The notes below the pieces were generated by a model that saw only the letters and a program-made list of their open reading frames with translations, made no database searches and was not told the DNA's origin. From an uncultured bacterium (GTDB lineage Bacteria > Desulfobacterota > Dissulfuribacteria > Dissulfuribacterales > UBA3076): a stretch of DNA of 49,148 bases. The stretch lies in assembly GCA_965539945.1 (NCBI GenBank), contig CBETWD010000002.1:1-49148 (forward strand), written 5' to 3'. Position numbers and translations under genes: made by a program. This document shows positions 7,441 through 17,453 of the stretch, in pieces. Each line of letters opens with the position of its first letter. Position 1 is the first letter of the stretch.

Positions 7441-7834
7441 ACAGAACTCCTCACAGGCACTTGCATTCCTGATACAAGGGCAATTCTATAGTCAAGTTGG
7501 TTGCAATATAGGACCTTATCATAGCAATTAACAGCACAGTCACCAATAGTATCGTTGAAAAGTCTTGATGCCTGTCCAAAATGTAGTCCATCAATTGGTC
7601 TGAGGCTATAGATTTTCAGATAAATAATTTCAACTGAGCCATTTGGAAAGCTTAGAATTTTATTAATTGGCTTATACCACTACTGGTAGTGGTATCATAG
7701 GAGGGTTCTGTCATTATAGGAATTATGGAGAATAGTAAGGATATGACATAGATTATGATTAAGCCGCCGGTTTGGCAGATAGCCCGAGTCTGTGTTCGTC
7801 TTGTGTGTCGAGCGAGCGGAGTGAGGGGGTGGGG

Positions 7835-7879
7835 AATTTACATGCCTGGGGTTGATGAAAGCCCCGGGCATGTAAATTT
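7835..7879. other. Strong hairpin (about 17-bp arms) downstream of the FmdB-like gene
   Basis: The arms are aatttacatgcctgggg and ccccgggcatgtaaatt around a 10-nt loop. No U-tract follows on either strand, so this is not a canonical intrinsic terminator. Confidence 0.4.
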
Positions 7880-7924
7880 AGGTTTCGATCGCGAGCAAAA
7901 TTACAATTGCCGGCTCCGGACCTA

Positions 7925-8335: not shown

Positions 8336-8701
8336 TTAATGTTGACACTGATGGCCTTCCTCGCCGTGTCCTTGACATGTGGGGCCTGTTATACCTTTGA
8401 GGCGGTTGGCAAGGAAGTCCTCCATCAACCGCGCCGGGTCCATAGTAGTCACACCTGCAATGACTTGTACCCCGGCAGCCGCTATTAATTCCACGGCCCT
8501 GCCTCCAATTCCTCCACATATTAAATGTGTAGCTCCCAGTTCGTGAAGCCATTGCGGCAGTGAGCCCGGCTCATGGGGAGGAGGTACAAGGAGTTGGGTC
8601 TTTGCGATATTTCCATTCTCAACATCTATTATAGCGAATTGGGCCGCATGGCCGAAATGGCTGCTCAGCATCCCGTTTTCAATTGGTATTGCAATTTTCA
8701 T
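8336..8701 (-). CDS. NifX/NifB-like (dinitrogenase Fe-Mo cofactor family) domain protein
   Basis: 121 aa. MKIAIPIENGMLSSHFGHAAQFAIIDVENG is typical of this fold family. The tail CQGHGEEGHQCQH is rich in His and Cys. The start overlaps the upstream gene's stop by 4 bp. Confidence 0.8.
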   Translation of the reverse strand: MKIAIPIENGMLSSHFGHAAQFAIIDVENGNIAKTQLLVPPPHEPGSLPQWLHELGATHLICGGIGGRAVELIAAAGVQVIAGVTTMDPARLMEDFLANRLKGITGPTCQGHGEEGHQCQH

Positions 8702-9615
8702 GTATTTGATTCCTCTTTCTTTTCCTTATTCTCTTCAGCTAGGGCCTGTGTGACATTAATTACGTTTCTCCCAATTTTTTGAAAGGCGTCTGCTGTATGG
8801 CTGTTGGGATATGAAGCAACAATCGGCCGTCCGGCATCCCCTGTGGTGACGACCCTCGGGTCAACAGGGATGCGACCGAGGAAGGGAATATCCAACTCTT
8901 CAGCCAGTCTCTCTCCACCGCCTTTTTTAAAAATGTCTATAGCCTTGCCGCAGTGTGGACAGATCATGCCACTCATATTTTCTACAATGCCTAAGACCGG
9001 CATGTTGATTTGTTTACAGAAGCTTATGGATTTTCTGACATCCAGAAGTGATACCTCTTGGGGCGTAGTTACTACTATTGCATAGGCGTCGGGTATGGTC
9101 TGAGCCACAGTCATCGGCTCGTCACCAGTCCCCGGTGGTGCATCAATTATCAGATAGTCAAGCTTTCCCCACTCGATTTCGTAAACAAACTGCCTTATAG
9201 CAGATGTCTTGAGGGGTCCACGCCATATAACCGCAGAATCTTTTGTGGGCAAAAGGGGTTCTATAGACATAAATTTCAGGTTGGGCGAGTAGTAAACAGG
9301 TCCAACCGTGCCATCCGGCCGTTGTTGAAGTTCTCCTTTTTCCACACCCAACATCTTGGGCACATTAGGCCCGTGCAGATCTACATCCAGGAGGCCGACA
9401 TAATAATTTTCAAGGGAAAGCCCGATTGCCAGGTTTATGGATACAGTGCTTTTACCAACACCGCCCTTGCCGCTCATTACCATGATTTTATTGTCTATAT
9501 TCCGTAGTTTTTCCTGAATCCTTTCGTCCTGCTCCTCAAGAACAGGATTTGTCATAGGATTTGCTGGTTTTTCCTTCAATCGTCTATTCTCCCTATAATT
9601 AGTTCTTTTGGCCAA
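8698..9615 (-). CDS. apbC: Mrp/NBP35/ApbC-family Fe-S cluster carrier ATPase
   Basis: It has the deviant Walker A SGKGGVGKST and a CPHCG (CxxC) motif. The start is uncertain: TTG at 9615 or ATG at 9555. Confidence 0.9.
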   Translation of the reverse strand: MAKRTNYRENRRLKEKPANPMTNPVLEEQDERIQEKLRNIDNKIMVMSGKGGVGKSTVSINLAIGLSLENYYVGLLDVDLHGPNVPKMLGVEKGELQQRPDGTVGPVYYSPNLKFMSIEPLLPTKDSAVIWRGPLKTSAIRQFVYEIEWGKLDYLIIDAPPGTGDEPMTVAQTIPDAYAIVVTTPQEVSLLDVRKSISFCKQINMPVLGIVENMSGMICPHCGKAIDIFKKGGGERLAEELDIPFLGRIPVDPRVVTTGDAGRPIVASYPNSHTADAFQKIGRNVINVTQALAEENKEKKEESNT

Positions 9616-9684
9616 AATCCTGCGGCCACTGTTAATGATGATGACTAATTTATCCTATTAACGGATATTTTGCACCATGCACTT

Positions 9685-10566
9685 TTACTTTTTCTTTTGA
9701 TTAAGGGCAATCTTTTCTAATTTCTTCCACATTTCTCTGATAGCCATGGCACCTGGCCCGTCTGAGTTTTCTACCAGGGGTCTGCCGGCAACCACGCTTG
9801 ACACGGCGTCGGGATCAAATGGAATCAGCCCCAACATGGAAATTTGTCTTTTTAAACAGGTCTCTTGGATTTTTTCTGCAACTTCCCTGTTCAGGTCTGA
9901 TTTATTTATACATACGCATGTAGGGAGCTTAAAGTGTTCCGCAAGATCTACTACGCGGTTGAGGTCATGGAGTCCGGATGTTGTCGGTTCTGTAACCACG
10001 AGTATCAGGTCAGCGCCGGCAAGAGATGCTATCACAGGACAGCCGATGCCGGGTGATCCATCAACCAGTATCCAATCGGCCTTTATTTCCTCAGCAATGG
10101 CCCTGGTCTCTTTTTTTACCAGGCTGACCAGCTTTCCGGAGTTTTCCTCCCCCATGCCAAGTTGAGCATGGACCATTGGCCCGTAATCAGTATCTGAAAT
10201 AAACCATGAACCGCACAGATTGTCCTTGAGGTTTATGGCCTCTTCCGGGCAAAATTCAGCACAGACTCCGCATCCTTCACAGGACAGGGGATCAACCTCC
10301 GCTGATTCAAGGGTTGTTATTGCACCAAACTGACAAATTTCTTCACAGATCCCACATGCCGTACATAATGATGGGTCCACCTCTGCGGTTACACCGGACC
10401 AGAACTCTGTTTCCTTTTTGATTTTTGGATTAAGCAGCAGGTGTAGATCCGCAGCATCTACGTCACAGTCAGCCAGAACTGTGTTGGGTACAAGTGCTGC
10501 CAGAGAACCAACCACTGTAGTTTTCCCGGTGCCCCCTTTACCGCTCAAGATCAGAATTTCCCTCAT
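9685..10566 (-). CDS. MinD/ParA-superfamily P-loop ATPase with two inserted 4Fe-4S ferredoxin motifs (COG1149-like)
   Basis: It has SGKGGTGKTT plus CTACGICEEIC and CEGCGVCAEFCP. It overlaps the upstream paralog by 4 bp. Confidence 0.88.
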   Translation of the reverse strand: MREILILSGKGGTGKTTVVGSLAALVPNTVLADCDVDAADLHLLLNPKIKKETEFWSGVTAEVDPSLCTACGICEEICQFGAITTLESAEVDPLSCEGCGVCAEFCPEEAINLKDNLCGSWFISDTDYGPMVHAQLGMGEENSGKLVSLVKKETRAIAEEIKADWILVDGSPGIGCPVIASLAGADLILVVTEPTTSGLHDLNRVVDLAEHFKLPTCVCINKSDLNREVAEKIQETCLKRQISMLGLIPFDPDAVSSVVAGRPLVENSDGPGAMAIREMWKKLEKIALNQKKK

Positions 10567-11396
10567 TGTACAAGTTCCTCCAGTAGGGACTCAAAGCTGC
10601 TGCGCAGGTCCGGCCGGCTTATAATAAGGGGCTCTCCTCTGGCGTAACCTTCGGCAATCCTACGGTCAAATGGGATATTTAGATGTATAGGTATATTTTC
10701 CTGCCTGCACCACGTCCCAACATCTCCATTCCCCAAGTCTGAGCGGTTAAGGATTACACCAAAGGACCGCTTGAGCTTTCTGAGCATTCCCACTGCCAGC
10801 TTGAGGTCATAGAGGCCAAAGGGCGTGGGCTCGGTAACAAGCAATGTATAGTCTGCATCATTCACAGTGGCGATCACCGGGCACGAGGTGCCTGGCGGCG
10901 AATCCAGAATAACCAGGCATTCGGGCGATGTTTCTGCCTCTGCCTTTACCGCCTTTATGAGAGGAGGAGACATGGCTTCGCCTATCCTTAATTTGCCTTG
11001 CACAAAGGATATCCCGTTGGCATGGCCTTTTTCGACAAACCCGATTTCCCGTTCTGTTTCAGCCAGAGCATCCTCAGGGCAGATCAGAAAGCAGCCACGG
11101 CAGGAGTGGCAGAGTTCCGGAAAGGTCATTATGATTTTGTTAAAGACCGTAATAGCATTGAATCTGCATATATCACGGCACTTGCCGCAATATGTGCAAT
11201 TGCTCTCAATTACAGATGGGATTGTGAGGGTGCATCGTTTTGTCTGTTCGATCGAAGGGCTAAAAAAGATATGGGCATTTGGTTCCTCCACATCGCAATC
11301 CAGGAGCTGAACAGGTCCCTTAGCTGCCAAAGCCAGGCTTACTGAGACTATAGTCTTGCCGGTCCCACCCTTTCCACTTGCCACTGCAAGTTTCAT
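10563..11396 (-). CDS. MinD/ParA-superfamily P-loop ATPase with 4Fe-4S ferredoxin motifs (paralog)
   Basis: It has SGKGGTGKT plus CTYCGKCRDIC and CHSCRGCFLICP. Confidence 0.88.
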   Translation of the reverse strand: MKLAVASGKGGTGKTIVSVSLALAAKGPVQLLDCDVEEPNAHIFFSPSIEQTKRCTLTIPSVIESNCTYCGKCRDICRFNAITVFNKIIMTFPELCHSCRGCFLICPEDALAETEREIGFVEKGHANGISFVQGKLRIGEAMSPPLIKAVKAEAETSPECLVILDSPPGTSCPVIATVNDADYTLLVTEPTPFGLYDLKLAVGMLRKLKRSFGVILNRSDLGNGDVGTWCRQENIPIHLNIPFDRRIAEGYARGEPLIISRPDLRSSFESLLEELVQ

Positions 11397-11431
11397 AATA
11401 ATTTCCTTATCCTTATCTGTCCTTAAGTGCC

Positions 11432-12025
11432 TTAACTTTCTGAGTCGTTGCCCATACCACGGCCTGTTCCGCTACCGCCACCCATTCCGCCGCCGCCTCC
11501 TCCGCCCATGCCGCGACCGCCGCCGCCCATGCCGCGACCTTTGCATCCTCCTCCCATTCCGCGACCTCCTCCGCCGATTCCGCGACCTCTGCCTCCTCCT
11601 CCCATACCACGGCCGCCGCCTCCCATGCCGCGGCCTCCAAACGATGGATCAAAGGTTTTGCCTGAATTTGCCGCAGCACTGGGACCTTTGTCCGGTGATG
11701 GAATCGTCCCCTTTCTATACTGTTCTATAGCTTCCCCGACAGTTCCGCTTACGTTTGATATCATCTTGATTCCACTTGCCTGGAGGACTTCAAAGGCTTT
11801 GGGTCCTATTTGTCCTGTCAAGACTGTCTGAGCACCTGATCCGGCTACAAGAGTGGCGGCATTAATACCTGCTCCCTGGGCGGCATCCTGGGCTGCCAAG
11901 TTATCGATAACGTTGACTATATTTCCTGATTCCGTGTCCACTATTATGAAATAGCCGGCCCTTCCAAACCTGGGGTCTACAGCAGAGTCCAGGTCTTTTC
12001 CAGTTGCACTAATCGCGATTTTCAT
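11432..12025 (-). CDS. NifX/NifB-like domain protein with a C-terminal Gly/Arg/Met-rich repeat tail
   Basis: The N-terminal ~115 aa (MKIAISATGKDLDSAVDPRFGRAGYFIIVD...) are NifX-like. The tail is FGGRGMGGGGRGMGGGGRGRGIGGGGRGMGGGCKGRGMGGGGRGMGGG.... Confidence 0.8.
   Translation of the reverse strand: MKIAISATGKDLDSAVDPRFGRAGYFIIVDTESGNIVNVIDNLAAQDAAQGAGINAATLVAGSGAQTVLTGQIGPKAFEVLQASGIKMISNVSGTVGEAIEQYRKGTIPSPDKGPSAAANSGKTFDPSFGGRGMGGGGRGMGGGGRGRGIGGGGRGMGGGCKGRGMGGGGRGMGGGGGGGMGGGSGTGRGMGNDSES
11450..11635 (-). repeat. Imperfect ~24-bp coding tandem repeat encoding (GGRGMGGG)n
   Basis: The unit CCnCCnCCCATnCCGCGnCC recurs on the plus strand. The overlapping Pro-rich and Ala/Glu-rich ORFs in other frames are shadows of this repeat. 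Confidence 0.8.
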
Positions 12026-12623
12026 ATGATTTTCTCCTTTTTATCTTTAAGTACCTTAGTAATTATTTTCGCGTTTTTTCCGGCAGAAAATTTTGAAACA
12101 CAATCAATTTTTTATCTTCAAACCTGTTTGGTTTCGGCTTGTCCGAATTAGTTAATAATTCTTTCTGCCTGCGACTTAGCTCAGGGCCGTTCTTCTATAT
12201 TACTTTTTCATGTTTTATTCAATGGCGACACAAAGATTTGCGGGATTTTTTATATTTAATTTCCTGTAATTTATAAGAAAATAAAGCCTGATTTTATTAA
12301 ACATGAATCTCATTTATAAAAGTCTATGATTCTCATAACTATAGGTAACTATTCATAATATAGTTAAATTCCACAATTTTTCCTTAAGAGGTTCCAAATC
12401 AGGAACCCAGTTAAAGGAAAGTCATCCCCAATTAATTGCAAGCCAGTCTCTATAGCAATTTACAAATTATGTCCGGACTGGTACCTTGTCAATAGTTTTT
12501 TTTGAGCGTATGATCTTTTCTGATAGCAGTAATGTCAGAAATTTCTTGTACTTTTATGGCATTGGGTGCTATTGCTTTTAAAGGATCTTTTACGTCTGAG
12601 ATAATAACACTGGAGGAAGGATT

Positions 12624-13979
12624 ATGGAAAAGGGTGAAAAACTGGTAGTTATCGGCTGTGGCGGTGTCGGCGGTCCTGCCGCAATGTTGTCAAAAAAACT
12701 TATGCCGGATGTTGATGTAACCATTATTCGGAAAGAAGAACGATTTATCGTTAGGTGAGCTTTGCCTCATGTTGTGGCCGGTCTGGCCACTGTTGATTCC
12801 ATCACAAATCCAGGTGCCATGTTCAAAAAAGCAGGTATTACTGACATTATTACAGAAGTAACCCACGTGGATACTGAAAAAAAGATAGTTGAATTATCAA
12901 ATGGTACTTCTATTGATTATGACAAGATTATTTTAGGAACCGGGGCAAACCAAGTGATACCTGAATTTGAAGGGGTTGACCTCGAGGGAGTATTCACTTT
13001 AAGGAACGTACCGGATGCAGAAAGAATAACAAGTTTTATGGAAGAGAAAAAGGCCAAAAACCTTGTTTTCATAGGGACAGGATTTATTAATCTTGAACTG
13101 GCGGCATTGCTTTCGGTAACCAAGCCGGATTACTACAATATAACAATTATTAAGTATATGACATTAGGACCTCCTCTGGCCCTTATGCTTGACGCGGACA
13201 TGGCGATCAAGATACAGGAACGTATGGTTGAAAAGGGTCTCAATATGAATATGGAGTCCAGGGCCACAAGGATTCTGGGCCGGGATGGAATAGTCACAGG
13301 CGTGGAACTTGAAACCGGCGAAAAAATCGATGCAGATATGGTCATGGTTTCAGTGGGTGCAAGGCCGAATCTGGAGCTGGCAAAGGATATGAACCTCGAA
13401 CTTGGAAAGTTCGGCGTCAAGGTGAATAAATATCTGGAAACATCAAATCCGGATATCCTTGCAGGTGGAGATTGCGTTGAAAAAATTCATTTTGTGACCA
13501 AAAAACCTACATCTTCGCTACTACGTGGCCCTTCAGTTATTCAAGGACGTCTTGCAGCCAAAAGACTGGCAGGGTATGAAATTGAATTTCCCGGAGTATT
13601 AAACAACTCCGCGGTCAGAATCTTTGACAAATATATAGCTGCTACAGGCTTGACAGATAAGCAGGCACAAAAGGAGGGGTTTGAAACTGTCAGCGTTGTA
13701 GTAAATTCCAGAAGTAAGCATGGTATGATACCAGGCGTCAAACCCTGGACGCTGAAGCTTGTCTTTGACAGAGAGACTCAAAGGCTGCTGGGTGGACAGA
13801 TTATCAGTGATTGTGGTGCACCTGTGAAGGAGATCGATACGATCAATGCCCTGATTATGGGTGAAAAAACCATCCCTGAATTAACCACATTTATGTGCGC
13901 GGGAAATCCCGACTGTTCCTCTGAACCGAGTCTTGAACCTATTACAGTCGCTGCGGAGCAAGCGCTACAGAAATTGTAA
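12624..13979 (+). CDS. Pyridine nucleotide-disulfide oxidoreductase (CoA-disulfide reductase/NADH oxidase-like), probable selenoprotein with UGA-Sec at 12756-12758
   Basis: The ATG at 12624 is preceded by GGAGG (12612-12616) and is in frame with track ORF 12762-13979. The N-terminus VVIGCGGVGGPAA is a GxGxxG motif. The single in-frame TGA aligns with the active-site Cys: RFIVR-U-ALPHV here versus TVLVP-C-GIPYI in the paralog. Confidence 0.8.
12774..12790 (+). promoter_or_regulatory. Candidate bacterial SECIS apical hairpin
   Basis: GUGGCC-GGUCU-GGCCAC has a 6-bp stem and a 5-nt loop and starts 15 nt after the in-frame UGA. The loop begins GGUC, like the apical loop of the E. coli fdhF SECIS. 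Confidence 0.55.
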
Positions 13980-14019
13980 CCAGTTCACAGGTTCACAGGT
14001 TCAGGGTTCAAAGGTTCAG
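13976..14019. repeat. IR-like GTAACCAGTTCACAGG followed by a GTTCA-type 7-8-bp array
   Basis: The sequence is gtaaccagttcacag gttcacag gttcagg gttcaaag gttcaga. The TAA stop of the upstream gene (13977-13979) lies inside GTAACC. Confidence 0.8.
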
Positions 14020-14291
14020 ATCCGTTGAATCGTGAGTTCTTCCTGCCCGCTCGCCAAGCTTGCGAGGCAGGCGGGAATGGAGAATGTATGAGAATAGAAC
14101 AATAGAGCAATGATAAATCATCAATCAACAATCAACAATCAACAATTTCGCTAGAGGCCGCAGAGAGGACGGAGATAAAGTAAAGACAAAAGCATTCACC
14201 ACAAGAACACAGAGACCACATAAATAAGAAACAAGAGTAGTTTTTTCTGTGTGCTCTGCGCGCTTGTGGTGAATATAGTCCTGCTCATAAA

Positions 14292-15644
14292 TCAGCAATT
14301 CAGTTTTTTGACTATTACTTCCACTGCCATCAAAAAAGGATATGTTATCGGTGATCCTGTAAGAAGCGGATGAGTTCCGATCTGGGCTGTGAGCGCAGAA
14401 TAAACAGTCATCCTATTCTGGATGATAATGCTGATAAAATTGATAAGTTCGCCTGTGCCGCCTCCGCCGATAACCGAACCGCCGAGCAACAAACCGGATT
14501 TGGGACTGGCTATAAGCTTTATAACCTGTTTTTCGGCTCCGGGTAATGTTCCCGGGTGCTTAAAAATTCCTTCAAAAGTTCCTGTTACTATATCAAACCC
14601 CTCTTTTTTTGCCTGATTTTCAGTTATTCCTGCTGCACCAAAAGCTGTATCTCCTATGGCAGTACAAAATATCGGAATCGTCCCATTAAATGTCTTCATA
14701 AAAGCTATATTATATAGATTCATACCGGCAATTCTTGCTTCCACGCATGCTGTTGAAGCAAGCATAAGTCCTGTCTTTCTTCTCAAGAGAAAATCATATT
14801 TTGCAGCACAATCGCCCACAGCAAAAATATCAGTATTTTTTTCCGTGCGCATATATTCATCTACCCTGATAAAACCCATATCATTGAGTTCCAGGCCGGA
14901 TTTTTCCGCAAAAGCTGTATTTGGTCTGTATCCGGTGGATAAGATCACAGCATCTACATCGATCTTTTCGTCGTTATTTAACAGGACTCCGGCAGCTTTT
15001 TTATTTCCCAAAATTTCCTTAACACCGCTTCCGGCCTTTATGTTGATCCCTCTTGATATAAGAATTTCCTCGGCTCGAATCGCGAGTTCATCATCAAAAG
15101 CAAGGGATAAAACATGAGGCAAAAGTTCAACTATAGTCACATTTTTGCCCAGTTTCCCAAGTTCGTCAGCGACCTCAACACCGATAAAACCGCCGCCTAT
15201 GACAGCAATGTTTTTACATCCGTCAAGTTTTTCCTTAACACCATCCAGATACTCTTTGTCTTTTGGTATTAAAAAAACATTTTCAAGATCAGCTCCTTTC
15301 AACCATCCAGGCACAGCAGGTGTTGAGCCTGTTGCTATAATAAGTTTTTCAAAGCTGATTTCTTTACCGTCTACGGTCTTACAGGTTTTGTTCTCCGCAT
15401 CAATTTTTTCAACTTCACCTATTTGGATTTTTACACCTGCATTTTCCAAAGGAGCATCAGGTATCACATTTTTATCACTTGATTTAAGCGTGCCGAATAT
15501 ATACGGAATTCCGCACGGAACAAGAACAGTTGATTCTTTTCTTATCACCGTAACTTCCTTGTCCGGATAAAAAGATTTTCCGGTTCTTGCAGCCACAATA
15601 CCTGCTGCACTCCCTCCGATTACAAGCACATCTGTTTTTCCCAT
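14292..15644 (-). CDS. Pyridine nucleotide-disulfide oxidoreductase (CoADR/NADH oxidase-like), Cys form
   Basis: 450 aa. It has VLVIGGSAAGIVAA (FAD), the active-site context LVPCGIPYIFG, and a second GGGFIG dinucleotide motif. The RBS is AGGAGG. Confidence 0.9.
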   Translation of the reverse strand: MGKTDVLVIGGSAAGIVAARTGKSFYPDKEVTVIRKESTVLVPCGIPYIFGTLKSSDKNVIPDAPLENAGVKIQIGEVEKIDAENKTCKTVDGKEISFEKLIIATGSTPAVPGWLKGADLENVFLIPKDKEYLDGVKEKLDGCKNIAVIGGGFIGVEVADELGKLGKNVTIVELLPHVLSLAFDDELAIRAEEILISRGINIKAGSGVKEILGNKKAAGVLLNNDEKIDVDAVILSTGYRPNTAFAEKSGLELNDMGFIRVDEYMRTEKNTDIFAVGDCAAKYDFLLRRKTGLMLASTACVEARIAGMNLYNIAFMKTFNGTIPIFCTAIGDTAFGAAGITENQAKKEGFDIVTGTFEGIFKHPGTLPGAEKQVIKLIASPKSGLLLGGSVIGGGGTGELINFISIIIQNRMTVYSALTAQIGTHPLLTGSPITYPFLMAVEVIVKKLNC

Positions 15645-17365: not shown

Positions 17366-17453
17366 GCCCGGGTGGTGAAATTGGTAGACACAAGGGACTT
17401 AAAATCCCTCGGTATAATATACCGTGCCGGTTCGACTCCGGCCCTGGGCACCA
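17366..17453 (+). tRNA. tRNA-Leu (anticodon UAA), CCA encoded
   Basis: It folds as a cloverleaf. The acceptor stem is GCCCGGG/CCTGGGC and the D arm is GTG..CAC. The anticodon stem AGGGA/TCCCT carries the loop CTTAAAA. There is a long variable arm, and the T arm is GCCGG-TTCGACT-CCGGC. Confidence 0.95.

What the first reader, a model, noticed from the sequence alone, without database searches (positions are those of the whole stretch)
12624..13979. In-frame UGA at the catalytic-Cys position of a CoADR/NADH-oxidase-like flavoprotein: probable selenoprotein with a Cys paralog next door
The ORF track starts this gene at 12762. An ATG at 12624, preceded by GGAGG at 12612-12616, is in the same frame. 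It encodes MEKGEKLVVIGCGGVGGPAAMLSKKLMPDVDVTIIRKEERFIVR, which is the GxGxxG FAD-binding N-terminus that the truncated ORF lacks. The only interruption is TGA at 12756-12758. The translated context is RFIVR-U-ALPHVVAG. The convergent paralog (14292-15644) has TVLVP-C-GIPYIFG at the equivalent position. The CoA-disulfide reductase/NADH oxidase/peroxidase family carries its single redox-active Cys in exactly this SFxxC(A/G)LPY context. Fifteen nt after the UGA there is a hairpin, GUGGCC-GGUCU-GGCCAC (12774-12790). Its apical loop starts GGUC, like the E. coli fdhF SECIS. With the upstream segment the protein is 451 aa, against 450 aa for the paralog. An adjacent Sec/Cys paralog pair is a natural experiment on the cost and benefit of Sec.
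Basis: partly seen in the sequence, partly recalled or inferred. Interest (0 to 1): 0.8.

Follow-up and report, generated by a model that had tools for sequence, protein, structure and literature searches.

The report
Selenocysteine flavoprotein gene, mis-called as truncated
The apparent stop codon inside this gene almost certainly encodes selenocysteine at the catalytic site of a CoA-disulfide-reductase/NADH-oxidase-like flavoenzyme, a type of selenoprotein already catalogued, though this divergent clade is annotated as a truncated protein in every public record I examined.

Summary
ATG 12624, preceded by GGAGG, opens a 451-codon frame interrupted only by TGA 12756-12758. That TGA aligns with the redox-active Cys of solved CoADR/Nox enzymes.

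In 80 related genomic loci (58-97% identity) the codon is always TGA. The 44 upstream codons are under purifying selection (dN/dS 0.09). The hairpin at 12774-12790 (loop GGUCU) meets the published bacterial SECIS model in 77 of 79 sequences, against 1% of background positions. It coincides with the strongest dip in synonymous variation in the gene and shows compensatory synonymous changes. TGA is otherwise a normal stop codon in the window.

A Sec-containing "NADH oxidase/CoADR" family has been known since 2004 (Geobacter metallireducens). This gene is only 30% identical to that protein, and its active-site and C-terminal motifs differ. Its nearest full-length relative is 41% identical and carries Cys. 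No Cys ortholog was found within the clade. RefSeq and UniProt list the Desulfosarcina widdelii copy as a 400-aa fragment.

The neighbouring Cys "paralog" is only 32% identical and sits next door only in the closest relatives, so it is a poor Sec/Cys natural experiment. Sec machinery in this genome could not be checked.

Verdict: genuine selenoprotein gene, new member of a known kind, moderate interest.

The parts
12612..12616 (+). Shine-Dalgarno-like GGAGG, 7 nt upstream of the true start codon
   Evidence: Read directly from the sequence.
12624..13979 (+). Full-length coding sequence of 451 codons plus stop for an FAD-dependent pyridine-nucleotide-disulfide oxidoreductase of the CoADR/Nox/Npx group, with Sec at residue 45
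   Evidence: Translation. Pfam Pyr_redox_2 covers residues 6-291 and Pyr_redox_dim 333-418. TIGR03385 covers 6-433. All 80 orthologous loci match residues ~1-451. dN/dS is 0.09 for codons 1-44 and 0.13 for the rest.
12654..12671 (+). FAD-binding GxGxxG (G11-C-G-G-V-G16), which is lost if the gene is started after the TGA
   Evidence: Translation, clade conservation, and the Pyr_redox_2 match beginning at residue 6.
12756..12758 (+). UGA codon 45, read as selenocysteine, at the column of the single redox-active Cys of the family. Context is FIVR-U-ALPHVVAG.
   Evidence: TGA in 81/81 sequences. It aligns to Cys in PDB relatives, the paralog, the nearest full-length homologs, and to Sec in the G. 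metallireducens selenoprotein.
12774..12790 (+). Bacterial SECIS core hairpin. The stem is 12774-12779 paired with 12785-12790, and the apical loop GGUCU is at 12780-12784. The loop starts 21 nt after the UGA.
   Evidence: Part of the MFE structure. 6 bp, loop GGUCU, -11.3 kcal/mol, passes all four bSECIS constraints, as do 77/79 orthologs. Lowest synonymous variation in the gene. G-C to A-U compensatory changes occur at two pairs, and loop G25/G26 are invariant. The GGUCUG core is the same as in E. coli fdhF.
13896..13916 (+). C-terminal Cys-bearing loop C425-A-G-N-P-D-C431, which replaces the (A/G)YAPP(F/Y)S or xHPxLT motif of relatives. A candidate second redox thiol (hypothesis only).
   Evidence: Alignments. 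At least one Cys lies in this loop in 76/78 orthologs, in two forms. It maps to about residues 417-423 of S. aureus CoADR.
14292..15644 (-). Convergent Cys-containing homolog (450 aa, 32% identical), a different subfamily with canonical GxGxxG motifs and a THPLLT C-terminal motif. Context, not part of the selenoprotein gene.
   Evidence: Adjacency holds only in L001-L005, with a copy nearby in L064 and L069.
8698..12025 (-). Divergently transcribed ORP-complex-like cluster: Mrp/ApbC-type ATPase, two MinD-like ATPases with 2x[4Fe-4S] domains, and a Nitro_FeMo-Co domain protein. A recurrent neighbour of this selenoprotein gene.
   Evidence: Pfam and NCBIfam. Homologs lie within 10 kb of the ortholog in 13-19 of 80 loci (clusters). 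ORP complex composition is taken from PMC6345978.

Best explanation
The gene at 12624-13979 encodes one 451-residue FAD-dependent flavoprotein of the CoA-disulfide-reductase/NADH-oxidase/peroxidase group. Its single redox-active residue, position 45, is selenocysteine encoded by UGA 12756-12758. During translation, the hairpin at 12774-12790 (6-bp G+C-rich stem, apical loop GGUCU, 21 nt after the UGA) acts as a bacterial SECIS element. It recruits SelB carrying GTP and Sec-tRNA(Sec) to the ribosome, so Sec is inserted instead of terminating (inferred from the established E. coli fdhF mechanism). The enzyme then presumably takes a hydride from NAD(P)H onto FAD and uses the flavin to reduce an oxidised Sec45 species. 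That species could be a selenenic acid or a Se-S mixed bond with a low-molecular-weight or protein (per)sulfide. The redox partner is not established. Shown here: the reading frame, the conservation of TGA, the RNA-level constraint on the hairpin, and the homology. Inferred: actual Sec insertion, and the chemistry. The gene belongs to a distinct clade of Desulfobacterota in which every member examined has TGA. The clade is separate from the published Geobacter metallireducens Sec 'NADH oxidase'.
For: Frame and start: an SD sequence plus ATG, with TGA as the only interruption. Without the upstream part, the protein lacks the FAD GxGxxG and the catalytic residue. Column: the TGA aligns with the active-site Cys of solved CoADR/Nox structures, the paralog and the nearest Cys relatives, and with U in the Geobacter selenoprotein. 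Conservation: TGA in 81/81 sequences spanning 58-97% identity and several orders. All 120 best database homologs are N-truncated at the same point, as are more distant fragments of 47-54% identity. Coding constraint on both sides: dN/dS is 0.09 upstream and 0.13 downstream, and the other two frames are closed upstream. SECIS: 77/79 pass the four published bSECIS constraints against 1.0% of background positions (model from PMC13188914). Synonymous entropy is 0.33 bits at codons 51-55 against 1.8 bits gene-wide, the minimum of the gene. The helix is 90% paired, against 20-58% for slid controls, with G-C to A-U double changes at two pairs made through synonymous third positions. The GGUCUG core matches fdhF. 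No code reassignment: TGA terminates 14 of 34 long ORFs in the window. Sec decoding exists in genomes carrying the ortholog: a Sec-HdrA (CxxU) in L077 and a Sec-MvhD-like gene in L080, each with a SECIS-like hairpin. Literature: a Sec form of this enzyme family is an accepted predicted selenoprotein family, and Deltaproteobacteria are the richest Sec users.
Against: No selA, selB, selD or tRNA-Sec gene lies in the 49-kb window, and the rest of this genome could not be searched. No other selenoprotein gene is present in the window. The hairpin is short, and its folding energy alone is not distinguishable from shuffled sequence. Part of its sequence conservation is forced by the conserved peptide V-A-G-L-A. 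Covariation is modest: three pairs have double changes, and RNAalifold supports only the 4 central pairs. No proteomic or 75Se evidence exists for any member of the family, so Sec insertion is a prediction. The substrate is unknown: scores are far below the CoADR equivalog cut-offs, and the SFxxC and YAPP(F/Y)S motifs are absent.
Confidence: 0.88

Rival explanations
1. The TGA is a genuine stop, and the locus is a pseudogene or a naturally N-truncated gene that starts at TTG 12762 or at GTG codon 51, as public annotation has it.
For: Gene callers and RefSeq/UniProt annotate it this way. GTG at codon 51 is present in 72/78 orthologs.
Against: A truncated product would lack the FAD-binding GxGxxG fold and the catalytic residue. 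The 44 upstream codons are more conserved than the rest, at 82% against 68% identity and dN/dS 0.09. The upstream ATG is present in 75/78. TTG at codon 47 is present in only 22/78. The GTG at codon 51 is explained by its place in the conserved hairpin. A pseudogene would not keep one identical nonsense codon, and no others, in 81 lineages.
Confidence: 0.03
2. The UGA is read through, but not as selenocysteine. Instead Trp, Cys or Gly is inserted by near-cognate decoding or another stimulated read-through, with the hairpin acting as a general read-through stimulator.
For: No Sec machinery was seen in the window. Nothing computational can identify the inserted residue. UGA can be miscoded at low level when selenium is limiting (general knowledge).
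Against: The UGA sits exactly at a redox-active Cys column, the hallmark of Sec/Cys pairs. The hairpin meets the specific bSECIS geometry and the GG(U) loop rule and shares GGUCUG with fdhF. Neighbouring genes of known selenoprotein families use the same arrangement in related genomes. Trp or Gly at the catalytic position would inactivate the enzyme, and if Cys were what is needed a TGC/TGT codon would serve, yet 0/81 have one.
Confidence: 0.05
3. The hairpin is not a SECIS. It is a by-product of the conserved peptide VVAGLA, or an intragenic terminator or attenuator, and Sec insertion (if any) depends on something else.
For: The simple scan flags 12774-12790 as terminator-like. Amino-acid conservation forces many of the bases. 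The energy z-score is not significant.
Against: Four-fold degenerate third positions inside the hairpin are nearly fixed: GTG 72/76, GCC 73/78, GGT 75/78, CTG 63/64. Flanking conserved residues use all synonymous codons freely. When those positions do change, they change in pairs that keep base-pairing: GUA with GCU, and GCA with CUU. The U-rich tail needed for a terminator is absent in most orthologs.
Confidence: 0.04

Closest known systems
[quoted passage not shown] The prototype is Geobacter metallireducens WP_011365774.1, with members also reported from the Olavius delta1 symbiont and GOS (PMC1794560, PMC1976440, PMC2398784, PMC9312934, PMC13188914).
   Same: Same superfamily (COG0446 / TIGR03385 / PRK09564 homology). 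Same length (451 aa). Sec at exactly the same alignment column, that of the single redox-active Cys. Predicted by the same logic of a Cys/UGA pair plus a SECIS. Found in Deltaproteobacteria/Desulfobacterota.
   Different: Only 30% identical. The Geobacter protein is a canonical CoADR type, with SFSA-U-GIPYYVG, GYAPPFS and TIGR03385 at 446 bits. The window protein has FIVR-U-ALPHVVAG, a Cys-bearing NPD loop and 268 bits. The listed family motif UGxP is not matched (U-A/S-L-P). The Geobacter Sec form is a lone lineage whose close relatives carry Cys (PMC1794560 Table S3). The window clade has TGA in every member seen, and its nearest full-length relative, at 41% identity, carries Cys, so an independent Cys-to-Sec origin is likely.
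Structurally characterised Cys enzymes: Pyrococcus horikoshii CoADR (PDB 4fx9, 5l1n, 3kd9) and Archaeoglobus fulgidus NoxA-3 (6pfz)
   Same: These are the best solved-structure matches (E 1e-57 to 2e-59) and align over nearly the whole length. The FAD and NAD(P)H Rossmann domains, the dimerisation domain and the single active-site residue at the same column are all shared.
   Different: They carry Cys, not Sec, and identity is about one third. They have AYAPP(Y/I)S in the C-terminal loop where this clade has CAGNPDC or SACNPDI. The third Gly of the NAD(P)H GxGxxG is Asn or Ser in this clade.
Escherichia coli fdhF SECIS (formate dehydrogenase H, UGA codon 140)
   Same: A hairpin lies immediately 3' of the UGA inside the coding region, and the apical loop begins GGUC within the same hexamer GGUCUG. 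In both genes this stretch encodes V-A-G-L. The loop starts 18 nt (fdhF) or 21 nt (window) after the UGA.
   Different: The fdhF element is a longer, interrupted helix, and (from memory) carries a bulged U needed by E. coli SelB. Here the conserved core is a plain 6-9 bp stem. The host SelB is unknown.
Mammalian-type thioredoxin reductase, the classic Sec-containing pyridine-nucleotide-disulfide oxidoreductase
   Same: An FAD/NAD(P)H disulfide-reductase fold that uses Sec in redox catalysis.
   Different: From established knowledge: in TrxR the Sec lies in a C-terminal GCUG extension and receives electrons from an N-terminal CxxxxC next to FAD. Here the Sec itself is the FAD-proximal residue, and any C-terminal partner would be a Cys. 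In addition, eukaryotic SECIS elements lie in the 3' UTR.

Membership tests
Bacterial selenoprotein gene (SelB/SECIS-dependent UGA recoding) | In-frame UGA with protein-coding conservation on both sides in the same frame | tested here: met
   dN/dS is 0.09 upstream and 0.13 downstream, and ATG is conserved in 75/78.
Bacterial selenoprotein gene (SelB/SECIS-dependent UGA recoding) | UGA aligns with Cys (or Sec) in homologs | tested here: met
   Cys in PDB relatives, the paralog and P0122 plus eight other full-length homologs. U in the Geobacter selenoprotein.
Bacterial selenoprotein gene (SelB/SECIS-dependent UGA recoding) | UGA conserved in orthologs from independent assemblies | tested here: met
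   81/81 TGA. All 120 top database homologs are truncated at that point.
Bacterial selenoprotein gene (SelB/SECIS-dependent UGA recoding) | bSECIS hairpin: loop of 3-9 nt, stem of 4-16 bp, G in the first two loop positions, 16-37 nt from the UGA, MFE <= -7.5 kcal/mol (PMC13188914) | tested here: met
   Window: GGUCU loop, 6 bp, 21 nt spacing, -11.3 kcal/mol. 77/79 orthologs pass, against a 1.0% background.
Bacterial selenoprotein gene (SelB/SECIS-dependent UGA recoding) | RNA-level selection on the hairpin (suppressed synonymous change, compensatory substitutions) | tested here: met
   Entropy minimum of the gene at codons 51-55. 90% of cells are paired, and there are double changes at pairs 18/36, 21/33 and 24/30. 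Covariation is modest.
Bacterial selenoprotein gene (SelB/SECIS-dependent UGA recoding) | selA, selB, selD and tRNA-Sec present in the same genome | not testable with these tools
   None in the 49-kb window, and the rest of the genome is not available. Indirect evidence only: other selenoprotein genes beside the ortholog in L077 and L080.
Bacterial selenoprotein gene (SelB/SECIS-dependent UGA recoding) | Selenium actually incorporated at the UGA position | not testable with these tools
   Requires 75Se labelling or mass spectrometry.
Sec-containing FAD-dependent oxidoreductase (CoADR/NADH oxidase) selenoprotein family (prototype G. metallireducens) | Homology to CoADR/Nox (TIGR03385, PRK09564, COG0446) over the full length | tested here: met
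   TIGR03385 E 9e-80 over residues 6-433 and PRK09564 E 5e-65. PDB CoADR/Nox hits at E ~1e-58.
Sec-containing FAD-dependent oxidoreductase (CoADR/NADH oxidase) selenoprotein family (prototype G. metallireducens) | Sec at the redox-active Cys column | tested here: met
   The pairwise alignment puts the window's position 45 on U45 of the Geobacter protein.
Sec-containing FAD-dependent oxidoreductase (CoADR/NADH oxidase) selenoprotein family (prototype G. metallireducens) | Listed Sec motif UGxP | tested here: not met
   The clade has U-A-L-P (71/78) or U-S-L-P (7/78).
Sec-containing FAD-dependent oxidoreductase (CoADR/NADH oxidase) selenoprotein family (prototype G. metallireducens) | Orthology with the prototype (same subfamily) | tested here: not met
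   30% identity to the prototype, whereas a Cys-containing relative is 41% identical. The C-terminal and active-site motifs differ.
CoA-disulfide reductase sensu stricto (EC 1.8.1.14; NCBIfam equivalogs TIGR03385, NF007123, NF010037) | Score at or above the curated equivalog cut-off | tested here: not met
   268.6 against 578.8, 219.9 against 458, and 154.8 against 394 bits.
CoA-disulfide reductase sensu stricto (EC 1.8.1.14; NCBIfam equivalogs TIGR03385, NF007123, NF010037) | SFxxC active-site motif and (A/G)YAPP(F/Y)S C-terminal motif, as seen in the Geobacter, P. horikoshii-type and NoxA-3 sequences | tested here: not met
   FIVR-U and CAGNPDC/SACNPDI are found instead.
CoA-disulfide reductase sensu stricto (EC 1.8.1.14; NCBIfam equivalogs TIGR03385, NF007123, NF010037) | NAD(P)H-dependent reduction of CoA disulfide | not testable with these tools
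   Needs an enzyme assay.

The most novel reading that the evidence does not exclude
This is not just another Sec version of CoADR but a separate enzyme lineage that appears to depend on Sec. It is widespread in sulfate-reducing and syntrophic Desulfobacterota, including Seep-SRB2-type partners of methane-oxidising archaea. It has its own active site (R-U-A-L-P-H), and no Cys ortholog was found above about 41% identity. A Cys-bearing C-terminal N-P-D loop is predicted by homology to reach the partner subunit's active site. That loop could form a selenenylsulfide relay with Sec45, arranged the opposite way round from thioredoxin reductase. The enzyme may work with the ORP/Fe-S/Mo-S cluster-handling genes that recur beside it, for example by reducing a persulfide or polysulfide. 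It would then be an unrecognised selenoenzyme that current pipelines truncate in every record I examined.
Probability: 0.3. Interest if true: 0.55.

Novelty: new member of a known kind. Interest (0 to 1): 0.38.

Why it matters
It corrects an annotation. The real product is a 451-aa selenoprotein, not a 400-406-aa flavoprotein lacking its FAD-binding fold and catalytic residue. The same error is present in all 120 closest database entries, including RefSeq WP_231715769.1 and UniProt A0A5K7Z1W4 of the cultured Desulfosarcina widdelii.

It adds a second, probably independent, Sec lineage within the CoADR/Nox superfamily. This lineage has no Cys orthologs among the sequences found, which is unusual for bacterial selenoproteins and suggests that Sec is needed here rather than interchangeable with Cys.

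It also implies a selenium requirement in Seep-SRB2-type and other sulfate reducers. The cultured D. widdelii strain is a tractable organism in which to test the function.

None of this overturns current understanding. Selenoproteins are common in these bacteria, and the family was first predicted in 2004.

Tried and rejected
1. Rfam scan and ARAGORN on the window found no SECIS family hit and no tRNA-Sec, only tRNA-Leu. This is uninformative, because bacterial SECIS elements are too variable for a curated family.

2. Single-sequence folding significance gave z = 0.36. The hairpin is too short for this test, so I replaced it with comparative tests.

3. I searched the window for other selenoprotein genes. 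The candidates at TGA 46869 (upstream of polA) and TGA 29988 (antisense to a CLC channel gene) were rejected after translation.

4. The look-up of encoding contigs for the paralog found the window's genome is not in the collection, so its Sec machinery could not be sought.

6. The listing of cluster members does not accept U. The X-substituted full-length D. widdelii protein is not on record.

7. tRNA scans of 60 related loci found no tRNA-Sec nearby.

8. I had first taken the C-terminal C-x5-C to be clade-invariant, from 14 close sequences. The full set shows two loop forms and two sequences with no Cys, so the claim was weakened.

9. Literature searches for selenium use in Seep-SRB2 and for the S. 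aureus CoADR Tyr361'/Tyr419' residues found nothing usable. The Tyr419' mapping therefore rests on my memory plus the coordinates.

10. A sigma-54 promoter upstream of the gene, of the kind that drives orp operons, was looked for by eye only and not found convincingly. The sigma-70 scan gives only weak matches.
Full report
**1. Observation**

- GGAGG is at 12612-12616.
- ATG is at 12624.
- The 451-codon frame ends at TAA 13977-13979.
- TGA at 12756-12758 is the only interruption.
- The perfect 6-bp hairpin GUGGCC-GGUCU-GGCCAC is at 12774-12790.

The mechanical ORF list starts the gene at TTG 12762. With the TGA read through, Pfam Pyr_redox_2 matches from residue 6, and the CoA-disulfide-reductase model TIGR03385 matches residues 6-433. 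The upstream segment therefore supplies the FAD-binding GxGxxG fold that the truncated ORF lacks.

**2. The TGA column**

- Against solved structures, the best matches are A. fulgidus NoxA-3 (6pfz) and P. horikoshii CoADR (4fx9, 5l1n, 3kd9). The TGA falls on their redox-active Cys (...RCGLPYYV... / ...PCGIPYVV...).
- The convergent neighbour at 14292-15644 is 32% identical and has Cys there.
- Nine more distant full-length homologs also have Cys there.

**3. Orthologs**

All 120 best hits in the 5.8-billion-protein database (67-97% identity) are 358-407 aa and cover only about 82-90% of the query, so every one was called from a start after the TGA.

A scan of one genome per species returned 80 loci at 58-97% identity.
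- They come from Desulfobacterales, Syntrophobacterales, Desulfobulbaceae, Desulfobaccales and unclassified Thermodesulfobacteriota.
- Two are cultured isolates: Desulfosarcina widdelii PP31 and Desulforhopalus sp. IMCC35007.
- One is the E20 Seep-SRB2 MAG.
- In most of them tblastn aligns residues 1-451.

Every locus has a stop at codon 45, in the context FIVR-*-(A/S)LPH(V/A)(V/I)AG, and the codon is TGA in 81 of 81 sequences. Two loci have frameshifts further on, which are probably assembly errors.

The upstream segment evolves as coding sequence in this frame.
- The upstream 44 residues are more conserved than the rest, at 82% against 68% identity to the window.
- ATG is the first codon in 75 of 78.
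- dN/dS is 0.09 for codons 1-44 and 0.13 for the remainder.
- The other two frames of the upstream segment are closed by stop codons in most sequences.

TGA terminates 14 of 34 long ORFs in the window, so the genetic code is standard. Sequencing error, a pseudogene and a natural internal start are therefore excluded for practical purposes.

**4. The hairpin**

On its own the 60-nt segment does not fold better than shuffled sequence. The comparative evidence is strong.
- Among conserved residues with four or more synonymous codons, codon-usage entropy averages 1.8 bits across the gene. It falls to 0.33 bits over codons 51-55 (V-A-G-L-A), the lowest five-column window of 128. Codon counts there are GTG 72/76, GCC 73/78, GGT 75/78 and CTG 63/64.
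- In a 79-sequence alignment, the helix at columns 17-24 / 30-37 is paired in 90% of cells, against 20-58% when the 3' arm is slid.
- Pair 21/33 switches G-C to A-U in five distinct sequences and pair 24/30 does so in one. All are synonymous third-position changes.
- Pair 18/36 occurs as G-C, C-G, A-U and U-A, although it is unpaired in about half of the sequences.
- Loop positions G25 and G26 are invariant, and U27 is present in more than 90%.
- RNAalifold supports only the four central pairs, so the covariation is real but modest.

The published consensus model (PMC13188914, Fig. 2) requires a 3-9 nt loop, a 4-16 bp stem, a G in the first two loop positions, 16-37 nt of spacing and an MFE of at most -7.5 kcal/mol. 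The window meets it with GGUCU, 6 bp, 21 nt and -11.3 kcal/mol.
- 77 of 79 orthologs pass all four constraints.
- The other two miss only the energy cut-off.
- 1.0% of positions across the window pass the same test.

E. coli fdhF, fetched for comparison, has UGA at codon 140 followed by ...GUU GCA GGU CUG CAC....

**5. Sec machinery**

The window holds no tRNA-Sec, no sel genes and no second selenoprotein gene. Its genome is not in the searchable collection.

In DNA the window is 93-97% identical to the Seep-SRB2-type loci L001-L003, so it comes from a related but different genome.

There is indirect evidence from the flanks of orthologs.
- L077 has an HdrA gene with ...NDCAM-U-VISPKL... (CxxU). 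14 of 21 homologs have Cys at that position.
- L080 has an MvhD-like gene with ...LVMG-U-HLGECHY.... 15 of 15 homologs have Cys there.
- Each is followed by a hairpin whose loop contains G, 22-23 nt after the UGA.

Genomes carrying this gene therefore decode Sec. For the window's own genome this remains an inference.

**6. What is already known**

- The prototype is Geobacter metallireducens WP_011365774.1, with the listed motif UGxP.
- Members were also reported from the Olavius delta1 symbiont and the GOS data.
- The Geobacter sequence is held in a supplement. It is a canonical CoADR type with SFSA-U-GIPYYVG and GYAPPFS, and it scores 446 bits on TIGR03385.

The window protein is only 30% identical to the Geobacter protein, although Sec is at the same column. 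It scores 268 bits on TIGR03385, far below the equivalog cut-off of 578.8.

**7. A distinct clade**

An exhaustive search of 1.84 billion 50%-identity cluster representatives shows how isolated the clade is.
- There is one full-length-scale representative (P0121, 68% identical), which is itself truncated at the TGA.
- There are also some fragments at 46-89% identity. Three of them, at 47-54% identity, begin at the same point as P0121.
- Scores then drop from 588 to 312 bits for P0122, which is 41% identical, full length, and has Cys (...TRCAIPY...).

No Cys ortholog was found inside the clade. The Geobacter Sec form, by contrast, has Cys-bearing close relatives (PMC1794560 Table S3). An independent Cys-to-Sec origin is therefore the most economical reading. 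This is an inference, because no formal tree was built.

Clade features:
- The active site R-U-(A/S)-L-P-H is invariant.
- C284 in the GGDC motif is invariant.
- The third Gly of the NAD(P)H GxGxxG is Asn or Ser.
- The C-terminal loop is MCAGNPDC (60/78) or TSACNPDI (about 17/78). At least one Cys is present in 76/78.

Relatives have xHPxLT or AYAPP(Y/F)S at that loop position. From the coordinates, the loop corresponds to about residues 417-423 of S. aureus CoADR. As I recall, Tyr419' of the partner subunit there lies beside the active-site Cys. I could not confirm this from the library. A Sec45-Cys' selenenylsulfide relay is therefore a hypothesis only.

**8. Context**

The Cys homolog is convergent and immediately downstream only in the closest relatives L001-L005. 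A copy lies nearby in L064 and L069. At 32% identity, and with different motifs, it is a different enzyme rather than a Sec/Cys isoform pair.

No universal operon partner exists. The gene does recur next to metal-sulfur-cluster-handling genes.
- Orp3/Orp4-like MinD-ferredoxin ATPases: 13 loci.
- Nitro_FeMo-Co (Orp8-like) proteins: 13-19 loci.
- Mrp: 10-14 loci.
- NifU_N/IscU-like proteins: 13 loci, in 11 of them upstream on the same strand.
- CGGC-domain proteins: 9 loci.
- HdrA-like proteins: 12 loci.

In the window, the ORP-complex-like cluster at 8698-12025 is divergently transcribed from the selenoprotein gene. The composition of the Desulfovibrio ORP complex is taken from PMC6345978. This hints at a role insulfide or cluster redox chemistry but does not establish one.

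**9. Annotation status**

In the complete genome of D. widdelii PP31, GenBank BBO75972.1, RefSeq WP_231715769.1 and UniProt A0A5K7Z1W4 all give a 400-aa protein starting at the GTG of codon 51. All 120 closest database entries are truncated in the same way. Current pipelines therefore do not recognise this clade as a selenoprotein.

**10. Verdict**

The finding is a new, divergent member of an already catalogued selenoprotein kind. Its biochemical substrate is unknown, and the 'natural experiment' framing is weak.

Interest is moderate.
- No Cys orthologs were found.
- The active-site architecture is distinctive.
- The mis-annotation is systematic.
- A cultured host exists, which makes follow-up practical.
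- Even so, a specialist would not be very surprised to find one more selenoprotein of this family in Desulfobacterota.

Noticed in passing
window 8698-12025 (- strand); homologs in L008, L010, L025, L026, L035, L037, L039, L061, L067, L068, L076 and others: An ORP-complex-like gene cluster is transcribed divergently from the selenoprotein gene. It comprises an Mrp/ApbC-type ATPase, two MinD-like ATPases with 2x[4Fe-4S] domains, and a Nitro_FeMo-Co domain protein. Homologs lie within 10 kb of the ortholog in 13-19 of 80 loci across divergent lineages, far more than chance for single-copy genes. This suggests a functional link.
   Followed up: partly
L077:12384 (+) and L080:786 (+): Two further in-frame-TGA genes of known selenoprotein families sit beside the ortholog: an HdrA with NDCAM-U-VISPKL (CxxU) and an MvhD-like protein with LVMG-U-HLGECHY. 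Each has a downstream hairpin whose loop contains G. Automatic annotation has probably split or truncated both.
   Followed up: partly
L078 (Desulfosarcina widdelii PP31, NZ_AP021875.1) 10001-11347: RefSeq WP_231715769.1, GenBank BBO75972.1 and UniProt A0A5K7Z1W4 annotate the ortholog as a 400-aa protein starting at GTG codon 51. They miss the Sec codon and 50 N-terminal residues. The same error affects all 120 closest database entries.
   Followed up: yes
window 13135-13164 (residues ~171-180) and orthologs L001-L012, L034: In the window's subclade, the end of the second strand of the NAD(P)H-binding fold reads ...NITIIKYMTLG, with Lys and a 2-residue insertion. Other members have ...VTVIEL--MD, with the usual acidic residue. 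Clade-wide, the third Gly of GxGxxG is Asn or Ser. This may indicate a change of nicotinamide cofactor preference (NADPH rather than NADH).
   Followed up: no
window 13980-14291 (intergenic region between the two convergent genes): The region holds short tandem repeats, GTTCACAG x4.6 at 13983-14018 and AATCAAC x4.4 at 14116-14146, and a G+C-rich hairpin at about 14040-14075. The segment 13977-14100 folds at z = -2.0. No canonical T-tailed terminator was found for either gene.
   Followed up: partly
L024 and L053 (ortholog coding regions): Both orthologs keep the TGA at codon 45 but lose the frame a few codons later (many stops in frame 1). These are probably indel errors in the assemblies rather than real pseudogenes.
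   Followed up: no
L038, L048, L060, L067: Orthologs at 61-62% identity occur in MAGs labelled Fibrobacteraceae, Dehalococcoidia and Phycisphaeraceae, outside the Desulfobacterota. Either the gene has been transferred horizontally or the contigs were mis-binned.
   Followed up: no
window 17366-17453; L001:3270-3357 and 7826-7913; L005:1876-1962: tRNA-Leu(UAA) lies 3.4 kb downstream of the gene in the window and in L003. In L001 a copy also lies immediately upstream of the selenoprotein gene, and in L005 one lies immediately upstream. This suggests local rearrangement around this tRNA in the Seep-SRB2-type lineage.
   Followed up: no
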